Shown here: positions 1 through 17,885 of the stretch, piece after piece
Layout of the letters: each line of letters starts with the position of its first letter
How positions within the stretch are numbered: the first letter of the stretch is position 1
Source of the DNA: Octopus vulgaris
Lineage: Eukaryota
Direction of reading: 5' to 3'
Assembly (NCBI GenBank): GCA_951406725.2
Contig: OX597836.1
Coordinates: 38,130,001 to 38,194,000 of the forward strand
DNA length: 64,000 bases
Position numbers: made by a program

Positions 1-3000
1 AACGACGCTAACAATCTCTCGTAATGTGAATTGTTTTTAGCAACATACCTTTTGTTGCCTTCTGTTGTCTATCTTCATTTCCAACGACTCACACCCTTAA
101 TGGAAAGATTGTATGTTTGATATTGCTGTGTTAAGTGGAAGTAATTATGAATAAGTAAATAACATGTTTTATAAATGGTGATAATCGAGTAGGAAGTTTC
201 CTTCCGAATCTCTCTTACTAATATACCCATATGTTACTAGATAAACAACATTTCTTTGTGTCTTTATGAAAATAATGCTGTTAATGTACTAATGCTGTTG
301 GTATTTGCTTCTCCTTCCTCAATATTCTTATTTCTTTCAAATGTGATATACAGTTCATGTTTTTACTACATCTAAATCATATTGCCCTTCCTAATATATT
401 TTAACTACACTTGACATAATTACAATGATTTTTCTAATGTTTATAATTGTGTTGTCGAATGTAACATTGATTACTGGATGAAAGCTTGTAGAACTTCAGG
501 ATATTATAGAAAATCCACTTGCAATGGTCTACAATAATACGTTTACTAATTATAAGCGTTTAAGTTGATATGTACCAGCTCCTATCTTAATTTATATACT
601 TTGAAATTATTTTTGTTTCCACTACTAATGACGTTGATTAAACTTAACGACTGAAATCTTACCAATTTCTTCTTATCTAACATATAATATTCCTTGTATA
701 GTTTTGAAAAGGCTCTAACATTTCATTCATATAATTTGAGATAATGAATATTGTATTGCGTTATTTTCAAGAACCTACTCTACTTTCAAGAGATGTGTAT
801 TTCGTACATAGTTTATGTATTTGTGAAAAGCTTAATTCAATCTGACAACGCATGTAGTCTGAGAAAGTGTGGCGTAATGCATTATTTCCTATACAGGCAA
901 CTTGTTGTATACCTATCGTGTAATATATATGTTTTCTCTACATTTATACATGAATACAAAGATACATACATCCATATATATATATATGAATAGCTAGCTA
1001 GATATATATATAAGTTCCAGTGTAGGTATGCATTTACTCACATGTGTATATATCTTGTCAGTATATTGGCGTATATCTGTATGGATATATGTACATGTGC
1101 ATGTGCATAAATATGTTTTCCAATATGCTGAAATGCATTTTCTTACGTGTATTTACGTCTAGATAAGTATGCTTCTATTTACGTGCAAATGTGGGGTGAG
1201 TGATTCATTGTCAGATAGATAAACTCATGTACAGGTGTGTGCTTGATAGTTGGAGTGTGAGAGAGCATTACACTTGCATTCAATATAGATATATATGGGA
1301 GTATTACTAAGTTTTGTGATTATTTTTCCTTGGAAGGAGGGCAACCAGAACCTACTAGACAGCCACCTATAATTGAGATGACGACAAAGAGAGGTGAGAC
1401 ATTAAGAAACCCTTTATTGCCTTTTAGTAAACGTATATGCTGACATCCATCTTATTCTCATCACGTTTGATATCAATGTGTAGCAAAGATTTTAATAGCC
1501 AATTGACAACCAGTAAGGATTTACTTTCTACATAAAGATAGTAGGTGTGAATTGTTGTATAGATTTTCCATATGTTTTCATTCAGAGAATTATTACAAGC
1601 AGTGATTCTCACTATTCATTGAGAGAAGATAGTAATGTGGAGTAAAGTGTATTGTTTGTGTGTGTGTGTACAAAGAAGACTTGACAACTGCTGTTTGAAC
1701 ATGGAACAGTAAATGTTAATTTTGTTTCTCGCAGTTGTGGAGAAAACTCCGGCACCTGCCATTACTTTACCAACAAAGGGTAAGGCTCTTGTACTGCTCA
1801 ACATATTCTTTGTTAATAGAGTGTTGTAGATTTGTATGTGTTCATGTTGTTGGTGGGCGTACATGTTTACATGTTATAGGGTATTGTTATTGACGAGAAT
1901 TATGTTGGTTATCAGAGAAACTCAGTGCTTTTGTCTATATGTGTATTGATTTTTAGACATTTGTCTTTGCTATATATGTCAGTTTTGTATTTCTCGTTCA
2001 GTGTTTTTGCAAGTTGTCTAATATGGAAATTTCAAACGAATGTTCAGATGCTTCTTCCAGTGAATGTTAGATGTTGAATGCCTGCAATTTCTTCGTATAT
2101 AATTGAGTGTTCTTTTGTTTTCTTTTGTCAATATGGAACGCGATTTTCCATGCAACACTGTCGCTGCAGGATTCGACATCGTTTCGGTTGAAGTGTATGT
2201 GATAACATTTGTTTGTTGTTGTTCTGATAGTTCCTGTCATTTTTCGTCTTCAATTGTTGATACTCTGTTGTGAACCAGTTTTGAGGTAGTTGTGATGAAA
2301 TATCTTGTTTTGTTTTGTGAGTTTTCAGATGTTTGTATTTTCGGAACTGTTTTTGTGCATAAGTACATGTAGTGTAAAATTGTAACTTTGCGTCATTGAA
2401 ATAGTTTTGAAATAGTATTGTAGATATATGTGTTGGCCGTGTATTACTGGATAGGTGATAAGTTATCCTAATGTTCTCCAGGTGATTGTGGTGCTACAGA
2501 ATCTGACATCATCTTCATTTTGGACTCATCAACTAGTGTCCAAGAAGAAAACTTCAAGAAAATGCTAAATTTCATTGTTGATTTTGTGTCTGCTGCTTCC
2601 ATTGACAATGGCAATGTTCGAATCGGTGCAGTCCTTTACAGTTCAGACGTGAAAATCCAATTCCATTTGAATGCTTTCCAAACAAAGCAAGAAGTAATCG
2701 ATGCAGTCCTCCAAATTCCATATGTTTACGGCAGTACAAACACTTACGGCGGGCTTAACACCATGCGGACAGTAATGTTCACGGCAGAGAATGGTGACAG
2801 GCCGTCCGTTCCCAATATTGCCATTCTGCTCACCGACGGCGTATCGAACGTCAATGCTTACGACACTATTCCAGAAGCCATGAAAGTGAGAGAGGATGGC
2901 ATCCACATATATGCTATTGGTATTGGTCTCAGTGACACTACAGAATTGAGCCAGATTTCCTCTTTACCTGTTGACGAAAACATGTTTATTGTGACTGACT

Positions 3001-15000: not shown

Positions 15001-17885
15001 TTGTCAATATGGAACGCGATTTTCCATGCAACACTGTCGCTGCAGGATTCGACATCGTTTCGGTTGAAGTGTATGTGATAACATTTGTTTGTTGTTGTTC
15101 TGATAGTTCCTGTCATGTTTCGTCTTCAATTGTTGATACTCTGTTGTGAACCAGTTTTGAGGTAGTTGTGATGAAATATCTTGTTTTGTTTTGTGAGTTT
15201 TCAGATGTTTGTATTTTCGGAACTGTTTTTGTGCATAAGTACATGTAGTGTAAAATTGTAACTTTGCGTCATTGAAATAGTTTTGAAATAGTATTGTAGA
15301 TATATGTGTTGGCCGTGTATTACTGGATAGGTGATAAGTTATCCTAATGTTCTCCAGGTGATTGTGGTGCTACAGAATCTGACATCATCTTCATTTTGGA
15401 CTCATCAACTAGTGTCCAAGAAGAAAACTTCAAGAAAATGCTAAATTTCATTGTTGATTTTGTGTCTGCTGCTTCCATTGACAATGGCAATGTTCGAATC
15501 GGTGCAGTCCTTTACAGTTCAGACGTGAAAATCCAATTCCATTTGAATGCTTTCCAAACAAAGCAAGAAGTAATCGATGCAGTCCTCCAAATTCCATATG
15601 TTTACGGCAGTACAAACACTTACGGTGGGCTTAACACCATGCGGACAGTAATGTTCACGGCAGAGAATGGTGACAGGCCGTCCGTTCCCAATATTGCCAT
15701 TCTGCTCACCGACGGCGTATCGAACGTCAATGCTTACGACACTATTCCAGAAGCAAAGAAAGTGAGAGAGGATGGCATCCACATATATGCTATTGGTATT
15801 GGTCTCAGTGACACTACAGAATTGAGCCAGATTTCCTCATTACCTGTTGACGAAAACATGTTTATTGTGACTGACTTCAACGAACTGTCGAATCTGAAAG
15901 AAAGAATATTTGAGCAATATTGCCCAGGTATAGCAATTAGCATGTGATTACAAAACGAAGTTGTATTGTAAAGCATTACTAATCAATGATATAATCTCAG
16001 CTATTCTACAAAGATATATTTAACACCATCCCCTACTGTGTTACTTTCAAGTCTGAGCTTTAGTTAATGTTTTGTGCAAGTATTTACCATTGACGTTTCT
16101 AACGACGCTAACAATCTCTCGTAATGTGAATTGTTTTTCGCAACATACCTTTTGTTGCCTTCTGTTGTCTATCTTCATTTCCAACGACTCACACCCTTAA
16201 TGGAAAGATTGTATGTTTGATATTGCTGTGTTAAGTGGAAGTAATTATGAATAAGTAAATAACATGTTTTATAAATGGTGATAATCGAGTAGGAAGTTTC
16301 CTTCCGAATCTCTCTTACTAATATACCCATATATTACTAGATAAACAACATTTCTTTGTGTCTTTATGAAAATAATGCTGTTAATGTACTAATGCTGTTG
16401 GTATTTGCTTCTCCTTCCTCAATATTCTTATTTCTTTCAAATGTGATATACAGTTCATGTTTTTGCTACATCTAAATCATATTGCCCTTCCTAATATATT
16501 TTAACTACACTTGACATAATTACAATGATTTTTCTAATGTTTATAATTGTGTTGTCGAATGTAACATTGATTACTGGATGAAAGCTTGTAGAACTTCAGG
16601 ATATTATAGAAAATCCACTTGCAATGGTCTACAATAATACGTTTACCAATTATAAGCATTTAAGTTGATATGTACCAGCTCCTATCTTAATTTATATACT
16701 TTGAAATTATTTTTGTTTCCACTACTAATGACGTTGATTAAACTTAACGACTGAAATCTTACCAATTTCTTCTTATCTAACATATAATATTCCTTGTATA
16801 GTTTTGAAAAGAGTCTAACATTTCATTCATATAATTTGAGATAATGAATATTGTATTGCGTTATTTTCAAGAACCTACTCTACTTTCAAGAGATGTGTAT
16901 TTCGTACATAGTTTATGTATTTGTGAAAAGCTTAATTCAATCTGACAACGCATGTAGTCTGAGAAAGTGTGGCGTAATGCATTATTTCCTATACAGGCAA
17001 CTTGTTGTTTACCTATCGTGTAACATATATGTTTTCTCTACATTTATACATGAATACAAAGATACATACATCCATATATATATAAATAGCTAGATAGATA
17101 TATATATATAAGTTCCAGTGTCGGTATGCATTACTCACATGTGTATATATCTTGTCAGTATATTGGCGTATATCTGTATAGATATATGTACATGTGCATG
17201 TGCATAAATATGTTTTCCAATATGCTGAAATGCATTTTTTTACGTGTATTTACGTCTAGATAAGTATGCTTCTATTTACGTGCAAATGTGGGGTGAGTGA
17301 TTCATTGTCAGATAGATAAACTCATGTACAGGTGTGTGCTTGATAGTTGGAGTGTGAGAGAGCATTACACTTGCATTCAATATAGATATATATGGGAGTA
17401 TTACTAAGTTTTGTGATTATTTTTCCTTGGAAGGAGGGCAACCAGAACCTACTAGACAGCCACCTATAATTGAGATGACGACAAAGAGAGGTGAGACATT
17501 AAGAAACCCTTTATTGCATTTTAGTAAACGTATATGCTGACATCCATCTTATTCTTATCACGTTTGATATCAATGTGTAGCAAAGATTTTAATAGCCATT
17601 TGACAACCAGTAAAGATTTACTTTCTACATAAAGATAGTAGGTGTGAATTGTTGTACAGATTTTCCATATGTTTCCATTCAGAGAATTATTACAAGCAGT
17701 GATTCTCACTATTCAGAGAAGATAGTAATGTGCAGTAAAGTGTATTGTTCATGTGTGTGTGTACAAAGTAGATTTTGTACACAGACGCAAACTCTTTATT
17801 CTATTTTATTAAACGTATATGCTGACATCCATCTTATCCCTCTCATACACTTGATATGTATATATATATATGTATTCTCAGTATT

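What the first reader, a model, noticed from the sequence alone, without database searches (positions are those of the whole stretch)
1..17770. Near-identical 3.2 kb three-exon module tandemly amplified into a poly-VWA protein
Seen: at least 5.5 units, each with 57+45+570 nt exons (224 aa), and with introns as identical as the exons. The MIDAS residues (DSSTS, T, TDG) and a Cys at each domain end are intact. Known: MIDAS-bearing VWA domains bind collagen and matrix ligands in collagen VI, matrilins and molluscan matrix proteins, where VWA repeats are usually highly diverged. Inference: very recent or continually homogenised domain amplification, giving a high-avidity protein whose length likely varies between individuals.
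Basis: partly seen in the sequence, partly recalled or inferred. Interest (0 to 1): 0.8.

Follow-up and report, generated by a model that had tools for sequence, protein, structure and literature searches.

The report
Recently amplified VWA exon-cassette array
A 3.2-kb block of three exons, encoding one metal-binding adhesion (VWA) domain plus its linker, is repeated head to tail at least five and a half times at about 99% identity inside a large matrix-type gene: an ordinary kind of domain amplification caught unusually young.

Summary
Window 1-17772 is a head-to-tail array of a 3214-3224 bp unit: five full copies and one 1672-bp partial copy, 98-99.2% identical. The window starts inside the array, so the true copy number is unknown.

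Each full unit carries a 57-nt, a 45-nt and a 570-nt exon. All have AG/GT borders and all are phase 1-1. The 570-nt exon is a full-length VWA domain (Pfam E=1.3e-45). MIDAS residues and both terminal Cys are intact in 5 of 5 copies.

Exons are no better conserved than introns. Coding changes are biased to synonymous (6 of 10, p=0.011). 27 of 55 informative site pairs fail the four-gamete test. This fits a young array still exchanging sequence, with functional exons.

New here: the + strand continues downstream with at least eight Pro-rich mini-exons of the same phase class, reaching 62640. The gene probably exceeds the window.

The closest solved relatives are collagen VI alpha-3 and mussel PTMP1. 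The architecture parallels the LPA KIV-2 coding repeat.

Not testable here: reads, transcripts, copy-number variation, taxon. I file it as a new member of a known kind, of moderate interest.

The parts
1..17772 (+). Tandem array: five full units (starts 1, 3225, 6445, 9664, 12887) and one partial unit (16101-17772). It is open at the window's 5' end.
1337..1393 (+). 57-nt Pro/Thr-rich linker exon, unit 1, phase 1-1
   Evidence: GC peak; splice filter (tested on the unit 1-2 intron copy)
1735..1779 (+). 45-nt Pro/Thr-rich linker exon, unit 1, phase 1-1
   Evidence: both nucleotide variants among copies are synonymous
2482..3051 (+). 570-nt VWA exon, unit 1 (one whole domain, phase 1-1)
4557..4613 (+). 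57-nt linker exon, unit 2
4955..4999 (+). 45-nt linker exon, unit 2
5702..6271 (+). VWA exon, unit 2
7777..7833 (+). 57-nt linker exon, unit 3
8175..8219 (+). 45-nt linker exon, unit 3
8922..9491 (+). VWA exon, unit 3
10997..11053 (+). 57-nt linker exon, unit 4
11397..11441 (+). 45-nt linker exon, unit 4
12144..12713 (+). VWA exon, unit 4
14213..14269 (+). 57-nt linker exon, unit 5
14611..14655 (+). 45-nt linker exon, unit 5
15358..15927 (+). VWA exon, unit 5 (last VWA in the window)
17434..17490 (+). 57-nt linker exon of the partial sixth unit. This unit has no 45-nt or VWA exon.
17740..17780 (.). 3' boundary of the array. Similarity to the unit stops about 10 nt after a short (TG)n run (unit position about 1679).
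24621..24680 (+). Candidate downstream Pro-rich mini-exon, 60 nt, phase 1-1, ends in G
31314..31394 (+). Candidate downstream Pro-rich mini-exon, 81 nt, phase 1-1
46739..46774 (+). Candidate mini-exon, 36 nt, phase 1-1, shared exon-end/donor motif
52204..52236 (+). Candidate mini-exon, 33 nt, phase 1-1, shared exon-end/donor motif
58551..58589 (+). Candidate mini-exon, 39 nt, phase 1-1; copy A of a diverged duplicate
59117..59155 (+). Candidate mini-exon, 39 nt, phase 1-1; copy A
62016..62054 (+). Candidate mini-exon, 39 nt, phase 1-1; copy B
62602..62640 (+). Candidate mini-exon, 39 nt, phase 1-1; copy B

Best explanation
The array is a real, very young or continually homogenised tandem amplification of a 3.2-kb genomic cassette inside one large modular gene for an extracellular matrix or adhesive protein.

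The duplicated segment runs from just upstream of the 45-nt exon to just past the 57-nt exon. Each copy therefore adds one unit: linker, then VWA domain, then linker.

Every exon is a multiple of 3 nt and splits a codon after its first base (phase 1-1). Any number of cassettes therefore stays in frame, and unequal crossing-over or gene conversion between units can add, remove and homogenise copies.

Inferred product: a string of identical VWA domains. Each would be closed by a Cys3-Cys189 disulfide and carry a complete metal-ion-dependent adhesion site. About 34 Pro/Thr-rich, probably extended and glycosylated, residues would separate them.

Probably the same gene then continues with a long tail built from Pro-rich mini-exons. 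Such a protein would act as a multivalent, metal-dependent cross-linker of collagen-like or other acidic matrix ligands.

Shown: the repeat, the exon geometry, the VWA identity and intact motifs, the mosaic variation and the synonymous bias.
Inferred: splicing, secretion, ligand, avidity, copy-number variation, and the link to the downstream mini-exons.
For: - Array and identities.
- Splice geometry: 16 of 16 exons have AG/GT and phase 1-1.
- Domain identity: VWA at 156.1 bits against a cutoff of 23.8, covering profile positions 1-173 of 174.
- Solved relatives: 119 PDB sequences at E<=0.001, led by collagen VI alpha-3 (2.5e-125 over several domains) and mussel PTMP1 (2.2e-38). The MIDAS and Cys columns align.
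- Motifs: MIDAS and both Cys are intact in 5 of 5 copies.
- Youth: exon and intron variation are alike, 10/672 against 24/2540.
- Exchange between units: 11 informative sites, and 27 of 55 pairs fail the four-gamete test.
- Edge effect: the edge unit u6 is the most diverged.
- Coding constraint: 6 synonymous against 4 non-synonymous variable nucleotides, on 148.4 synonymous and 514.6 non-synonymous sites, P(S>=6 of 10)=0.011. This includes 2 of 2 variants in the 45-nt exon.
- Indels: all 16 indel columns are non-coding.
- Mini-exons: both lie on two of the three highest GC peaks of the non-coding part (0.51 against a mean of 0.317). Both are among the 3 of 131 open phase-1/1 AG..GT candidates that pass the splice filters.
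- Downstream exons: eight further Pro-rich phase-1/1 mini-exons lie on the same strand.
- Shared donor motif: ACTGGTAAG occurs 6 times, all on +, against 0.42 expected. TCARCTGGTRAG occurs 4 times, all on +, against 0.01 expected.
- Conservation in an old duplicate: exon columns are 67/78 identical with no gaps, against 574/776 identical plus 94 gap columns elsewhere (p=0.019).
Against: - There is no transcript, read or second-genome evidence of any kind.
- At 99% identity, conservation cannot separate exons from introns, so the two mini-exons rest on splice signals, GC content and two synonymous variants.
- A third candidate (33 nt, 4383-4415) passes the same filter.
- A GC peak at unit-1 positions 2122-2208 is not explained.
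- The Pro-rich exon scan is not specific alone: 5 donors on + against 2 on the control strand.
- The donor motifs were chosen after seeing the data.
- The single-sequence structure model is poor (pLDDT 54.1). Fold matches to VWA structures reach only TM 0.39-0.50.
- No signal peptide, gene start or gene end lies in the window.
- Synonymous-site variation (6/148) exceeds intron variation (24/2540, p=0.005). A simple neutral young-duplication model does not predict this.
Confidence: 0.7

Rival explanations
1. Assembly artefact. A shorter repeat, or a single cassette with allelic or paralogous variants, was expanded or mis-joined by the assembler. The 5.5 copies and their order would then not be real.
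For: - The copies are 98-99.2% identical.
- The array touches the window edge.
- It abuts a 1.2-kb (TA)n-type microsatellite at 17854-19059, a context that is hard to assemble.
- No reads could be examined.
- The mosaic of variants could also arise from mis-polishing.
Against: - Units differ by 34 substitution columns and 16 indel columns among the five full copies. Each has private variants and a different length.
- 11 variants are shared by two or more units.
- The last unit has its own divergence level and a defined junction with unique sequence.
- False duplication usually gives two copies, and long repeats are more often collapsed than expanded (general knowledge, not tested).
Confidence: 0.12
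2. The array is real but is not translated as a poly-VWA protein. It could be a silent or decaying duplicate block. Alternatively, splicing could use only one or a few cassettes, with or without the two mini-exons, so the protein is much shorter than the genome suggests.
For: - Exons are no more conserved than introns.
- At this divergence, intact reading frames are weak evidence.
- All exons are phase 1-1, so skipping any of them keeps the frame.
- No expression data are available.
Against: - Synonymous bias of the coding variants (p=0.011).
- There are no indels in 5 x 672 coding nt, while 16 indel columns lie in non-coding sequence.
- All 32 splice dinucleotides are kept.
- MIDAS and Cys are intact in 5 of 5 copies.
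Confidence: 0.15
3. The VWA array and the downstream Pro-rich mini-exons are two separate genes. The VWA gene would end between 17.8 and 24.6 kb in an exon that I did not recognise.
For: - 6.8 kb of repeat-rich sequence, with no recognised exon, separates 17490 from 24621.
- The mini-exon scan has a real false-positive rate.
- No homology links the two parts.
Against: - Same strand, same phase class, same habit of ending in G.
- Same Pro/Thr-rich composition as the array's own linker exons.
- No plausible terminal exon was seen among the 93 filtered + strand ORFs (out of 220 of at least 40 aa) downstream (read by eye).
Confidence: 0.3

Closest known systems
Mussel proximal thread matrix protein 1 (PTMP1; PDB 4CN8, 4CN9, 4CNB)
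   Same: It has tandem VWA domains with a MIDAS motif; the title of 4CN9 names a zinc-occupied MIDAS. It is the best single-protein sequence match after collagen VI (E=2.2e-38, two stretches). DxSxS, T, D and both terminal Cys align. It is also the top fold match. PTMP1 is reported to bind mussel and mammalian collagens (PMC4754843, abstract and passages).
   Different: PTMP1 has two diverged domains. Here there are at least five near-identical domains, each followed by a Pro/Thr linker on its own exons. No binding data exist for this protein, and orthology was not tested.
Collagen VI alpha-3 N-terminal VWA array (PDB 9HAN, 4IGI, 6SNK)
   Same: It is a long string of VWA domains. The query matches at least eight of them (20-79.5 bits each). 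One domain per exon with phase 1-1 is the arrangement I recall for collagen VI genes; that is recall, not a test.
   Different: The collagen VI domains are old and diverged from each other, as the spread of scores shows. No Gly-X-Y run of 5 or more triplets exists in any frame of this window, so nothing here shows a collagen.
LPA kringle IV type-2 coding repeat
   Same: It is a kilobase-sized genomic unit holding whole exons, repeated in tandem and in frame. It has 5.6 kb per unit and 1-40 units per allele (PMC11462820) and covers up to 70% of the coding sequence (PMC11201333). I saw only the starts of both abstracts in the listing. The array here has 3.2 kb and three exons per unit, and introns as alike as exons.
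   Different: A different domain, a different lineage and a different protein class. Copy-number variation is documented for LPA and untested here.
Molluscan Pif/BMSP shell-matrix proteins
   Same: They have VWA domains, up to four in tandem in bivalve BMSPs, with low-complexity regions between tandem VWA domains (PMC11291548, passages).
   Different: Those proteins also carry chitin-binding and laminin-G domains, and none was seen here. Their four VWA domains form separate old clades (same paper) and are not near-identical. The window's taxon is unknown.
Spring-like regions built from mini-exons (titin PEVK, elastin); recalled, not looked up
   Same: Many short Pro-rich exons of uniform phase, so that exons can be added or skipped in frame. 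The eight downstream mini-exons (33-81 nt) have that design.
   Different: There is no sequence homology and no evidence of elasticity. The link to the VWA array is inferred.

Membership tests
VWA domain (Pfam PF00092) | Profile match above the curated cutoff over the whole domain | tested here: met
   156.1 bits against a cutoff of 23.8, E=1.3e-45, profile positions 1-173 of 174. Five full-length copies by tblastn.
VWA domain (Pfam PF00092) | Complete MIDAS (DxSxS, Thr, Asp) | tested here: met
   D15, S17, S19, T86 and D119 in 5 of 5 copies. The columns align with the PTMP1 motifs.
VWA domain (Pfam PF00092) | Alpha/beta fold of the VWA type | tested here: inconclusive
   The single-sequence model has pLDDT 54.1 and pTM 0.53, with alternating strands and helices. 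All 11 fold matches at E<=0.001 are VWA or I domains, but TM is only 0.39-0.50.
VWA domain (Pfam PF00092) | Metal-dependent ligand binding | not testable with these tools
   Needs recombinant protein.
Extracellular disulfide-closed VWA (VWF A, collagen VI, matrilin type) | One Cys near each end of the domain | tested here: met
   Cys3 and Cys189 are the only Cys in each of the 5 copies, and they align with the PTMP1 Cys. The disulfide itself is inferred.
Collagen VI chain | Gly-X-Y triple-helical region next to the VWA domains | tested here: not met
   No run of 5 or more Gly-X-Y triplets in any of the six frames of the 64-kb window. The gene may extend beyond the window.
Pif/BMSP family | Chitin-binding and laminin-G domains with the VWA | tested here: inconclusive
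   Only 10 downstream ORFs were scanned with Pfam, and none matched such a domain. The 93 filtered + strand ORFs were read by eye only.
Matrilin | EGF domains and a C-terminal coiled coil | not tested
   No dedicated search was made. Nothing Cys-rich was seen by eye.
Multi-exon coding tandem repeat (LPA KIV-2 type) | Kilobase unit with whole exons, in tandem, frame kept | tested here: met
Multi-exon coding tandem repeat (LPA KIV-2 type) | Introns as alike as exons | tested here: met
   10/672 against 24/2540 variable columns, p=0.21
Multi-exon coding tandem repeat (LPA KIV-2 type) | Copy number varies between individuals | not testable with these tools
   One assembly, no reads.

The most novel reading that the evidence does not exclude
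The array is a copy-number-variable coding macrosatellite kept uniform by ongoing unequal exchange. It would tune the valency of a giant secreted protein in which identical MIDAS-bearing VWA beads on Pro/Thr linkers are joined to a spring-like tail of Pro-rich mini-exons. The excess of clustered synonymous variants in the VWA exon would reflect gene conversion from diverged VWA paralogues elsewhere in the gene or genome.
Probability: 0.25. Interest if true: 0.55.

Novelty: new member of a known kind. Interest (0 to 1): 0.36.

Why it matters
Poly-VWA matrix and adhesive proteins are common, but their domains are normally old and diverged, so the step that creates them is rarely seen. Here the amplification is caught at about 1% divergence, with cassette borders, phase rule and exchange signature all readable.

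If copy number varies in the population, this would be an invertebrate counterpart of the LPA kringle repeat. It would be a natural series of the same adhesion protein with different valency. That would be useful for asking how domain number sets matrix cross-linking or wet adhesion.

It also flags a locus where assemblies and gene models are likely to be wrong.

Tried and rejected
I then scanned 10 stop-free ORFs. 1 of 10 reached a curated cutoff, a PiggyBac-type transposase fragment, and none matched a matrix domain.
- A tblastn of the VWA domain against the window found nothing outside the five exons better than E=0.1.
- Sensitive BLASTN of the unit against 17773-64000 gave one 70-nt match at 17789-17857 and microsatellite matches only. 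There is no decayed older unit downstream.
- Rfam at gathering thresholds gave 0 matches, and ARAGORN found 0 tRNAs.
- One scan of bacterial and archaeal genomes for relatives, meant to deepen an alignment for folding, matched 19 pattern stretches and confirmed none. The second fold job was therefore not used.
- ESM Atlas on an unexplained transposon-like ORF gave only unnamed eukaryotic clusters.
- A 33-nt candidate exon at 4383-4415 passes my splice filter, but it lies in microsatellite-like sequence and I do not adopt it.
- The GC peak at unit-1 positions 2122-2208 holds an AG..GT segment of 25 nt by my reading. It would break the frame, so I do not adopt it.
- Literature searches for near-identical or concertedly evolving VWA arrays found no such description (passages read). 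The library is partial.
- No complex prediction was made, because I claim no specific partner.
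Full report
**1. The observation**

A self-comparison of window 1-3300 finds the same sequence again at 3225, 6445, 9664 and 12887, at 98.94-99.18% identity over 3300-3304 columns. It appears once more, truncated, at 16101-17772 (97.98% over 1681 columns). Aligned in register, the units are 3224, 3220, 3219, 3223 and 3214 bp, plus a 1672-bp partial unit. 72 of 3230 alignment columns vary among the six rows. The window begins inside the array, so 5.5 units is a lower bound. 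Tandem Repeats Finder does not list the array because its longest period is 500.

**2. Exons**

Each full unit has three stretches bounded by AG and GT: 57 nt, 45 nt and 570 nt. There are six, five and five copies respectively. All 16 begin at the second base of a codon and end at the first base of a codon, which is always G.

The 570-nt exon alone encodes a whole VWA domain. Pfam PF00092 scores 156.1 bits against a cutoff of 23.8, E=1.3e-45, covering profile positions 1-173 of 174.

Against solved structures, 119 distinct sequences match at E<=0.001. The list is led by bovine collagen VI alpha-3 (several domains, 20-79.5 bits each) and mussel PTMP1 (E=2.2e-38), followed by apicomplexan MIC2 and integrin I domains.

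All five copies keep DSSTS (D15, S17, S19), T86, D119 and exactly two cysteines, Cys3 and Cys189. These columns align with the corresponding PTMP1 residues.

A single-sequence AlphaFold model is poor (pLDDT 54.1, pTM 0.53). All 11 fold matches at E<=0.001 are VWA or I domains, but TM is only 0.39-0.50. I count the fold as consistent, not shown.

The exons were searched one at a time. Only the VWA exon is long enough. The mini-exons have 18 and 14 whole codons, below the 20-residue minimum. The joined 224-residue unit and the multi-unit protein were not assembled, searched or folded.

**3. Are the two mini-exons real?**

At 99% identity, conservation cannot tell. Other evidence:
- In the 2.65-kb interval between two VWA exons, 131 AG..GT segments of 27-198 nt are open in phase 1-1.
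- Both sit on GC peaks of 0.51, against 0.317 for non-coding sequence.
- Both nucleotide variants in the 45-nt exon are synonymous.
- Their inner peptides are 13 of 32 Pro or Thr (read).

Against this, a third candidate (33 nt) passes the same filter, and a third GC peak is unexplained. I take the mini-exons as probable.

**4. Age and dynamics of the array**

Among the five full units, 10 of 672 exon columns and 24 of 2540 ungapped non-coding columns vary (p=0.21). All 16 indel columns are non-coding.

Pairwise non-coding divergence is 0.12-0.79% among units 1-5 and 1.18-1.43% for the terminal partial unit. This is the pattern expected when interior units are homogenised and edge units escape.

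Eleven sites are shared by two or more units, and 27 of 55 site pairs show all four combinations. The units have therefore exchanged segments, or sites have mutated repeatedly. Units 1 and 3 share a linked block (2879, 2881, 2963, 3155) against units 2, 4 and 5, which hints at a higher-order repeat.

Of the 10 variable coding nucleotides, 6 are synonymous and 4 are not (three residue positions: Thr/Ser, Ala/Thr, Met/Lys). The sites available are 148.4 synonymous and 514.6 non-synonymous, giving P(S>=6 of 10)=0.011. The exons have thus been under purifying selection since the copies diverged.

Unexplained: synonymous variation (6/148) is denser than intron variation (24/2540, p=0.005). All eight VWA-exon variants lie between 2750 and 2963, and several are adjacent. 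Conversion from diverged paralogues is one possible source, but it is untested.

**5. The 3' boundary**

Similarity to the unit stops at about 17772, some 10 nt after a short (TG)n run. The amplified segment therefore runs from just upstream of the 45-nt exon to just past the 57-nt exon. A 1.2-kb (TA)n-type microsatellite follows at 17854-19059. No further VWA sequence and no decayed unit lie downstream.

**6. Downstream of the array (not in the finding)**

The + strand holds at least eight more short Pro-rich exons with strong splice sites. All are multiples of 3, all are phase 1-1 and all end in G:
- 24621-24680
- 31314-31394
- 46739-46774
- 52204-52236
- 58551-58589
- 59117-59155
- 62016-62054
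- 62602-62640

Evidence for them:
- The exon-end/donor word ACTGGTAAG occurs 6 times, always on +, against 0.42 expected.
- TCARCTGGTRAG occurs 4 times, always on +, against 0.01 expected. The words were chosen after seeing the exons.
- The segment 58415-59284 is an old duplicate of 61881-62750 (71% identity, offset 3466). In their alignment the exon columns are 67/78 identical without gaps, against 574/776 identical plus 94 gap columns elsewhere (p=0.019).

A control weakens the scan itself: with a Pro filter it finds 5 donors on + and 2 on the opposite strand.

I infer, at about 70%, that these exons belong to the same gene. That gene would then exceed the window at both ends. No Gly-X-Y run of 5 or more triplets exists in any frame, so nothing shows a collagen.

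**7. Surroundings**

- A PiggyBac-type transposase fragment lies at 22797-23312 on the minus strand. It was the only 1 of 10 ORFs scanned to reach a Pfam cutoff.
- A roughly 220-bp interspersed repeat occurs at about eight places between 19.3 and 51.5 kb, and none lies in the array.
- Overall G+C is 22-41% per 2 kb.
- I do not take the window for human.

**8. Mechanism**

Phase 1-1 modules can be duplicated, shuffled or skipped without breaking the frame; this is the class 1-1 rule for extracellular modules, recalled. Unequal crossing-over between 3.2-kb units then changes copy number and spreads variants.

The product would be a chain of identical, disulfide-closed, MIDAS-competent VWA domains on flexible Pro/Thr linkers. 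By analogy with PTMP1, it would bind collagen-like ligands multivalently. PTMP1 binds mussel and mammalian collagens (PMC4754843, abstract and passages).

Splicing, secretion, ligand and avidity are all inferred.

**9. Comparison and novelty**

Tandem VWA domains are known in collagen VI, in PTMP1 and in molluscan BMSPs. BMSPs have four, each an old clade (PMC11291548, passages). In all of these the domains are diverged.

A kilobase multi-exon coding repeat with uniform introns is known from LPA KIV-2: 5.6 kb per unit and 1-40 units per allele (PMC11462820, start of the abstract in the listing).

Searches combining VWA with tandem, cephalopod, octopus, adhesive or concerted evolution found no description of a near-identical VWA cassette array. 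The library is partial. Supplements were closed and were not needed for any claim.

**Verdict**

This is a real-looking and well-defined locus, and a new member of two known kinds: poly-VWA matrix proteins and multi-exon coding tandem repeats. Interest is moderate. It would be higher if copy number proves polymorphic.

Noticed in passing
window 17854-19059: A 1.2-kb (TA)n to (TATG)n-type microsatellite (201 copies of a 6-nt period, 86% matches) starts about 80 nt after the array's 3' end.
   Followed up: partly
window 2750-2963 and the equivalent positions in units 2-5: All eight variable sites of the VWA exon fall in this 214-nt part, and some are adjacent (2782-2784, 2879/2881). Synonymous-site variation (6/148) is denser than intron variation (24/2540, p=0.005). 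This is unexplained; conversion from diverged paralogues is one idea.
   Followed up: partly
window 58415-59284 and 61881-62750: An old tandem duplicate (71% identity, offset 3466) carrying two 39-nt Pro-rich mini-exons each. Its period is close to that of the VWA array, but it shares no sequence with it.
   Followed up: yes
window 58938-58969 and 62426-62457: A 32-nt run is perfectly identical between the two old duplicates. It lies in the intron between the mini-exons and is the longest identical run in the alignment. It may be a splicing or regulatory element.
   Followed up: no
window 2122-2208 and the equivalent positions in units 2-5: A third GC peak (0.51) lies in the intron before the VWA exon. 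By my reading it holds an AG..GT segment of 25 nt that would break the frame if spliced in.
   Followed up: partly
window 22797-23312 (-): A fragment of a PiggyBac-type transposase (DDE_Tnp_1_7, 36.7 bits against a cutoff of 22.4, profile positions 3-58 of 349). It lies in what is probably an intron.
   Followed up: yes
window 19363-19577, 26206-26391, 26841-27260, 28840-29061, 32790-33149, 42822-42959, 48973-49013, 51329-51515: A G+C-rich interspersed repeat of about 220 bp (71-91% identity between copies) on both strands. None lies inside the VWA array. The copy at 32.8-33.1 kb ends in a 62-bp tandem repeat (32955-33168).
   Followed up: partly
window 37197-38538 (-): Several adjoining ORFs of 45-148 aa look like a decayed transposon gene. 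The four scanned (148, 125, 63 and 45 aa) had no Pfam family at the cutoff. The Atlas search, run on the 148-aa ORF only, gave only unnamed eukaryotic clusters (score 0.94).
   Followed up: partly
window 17789-17857: Just past the array there is a 70-nt match (84%) to unit positions 1407-1473, the stretch that follows the 57-nt exon. It may be a relic of an older copy or of a small repeat.
   Followed up: no
window 42958-43167 and 45853-46082: Further long microsatellites, (AT)n/(TATG)-like and (ATT)77, typical of this A+T-rich sequence.
   Followed up: no
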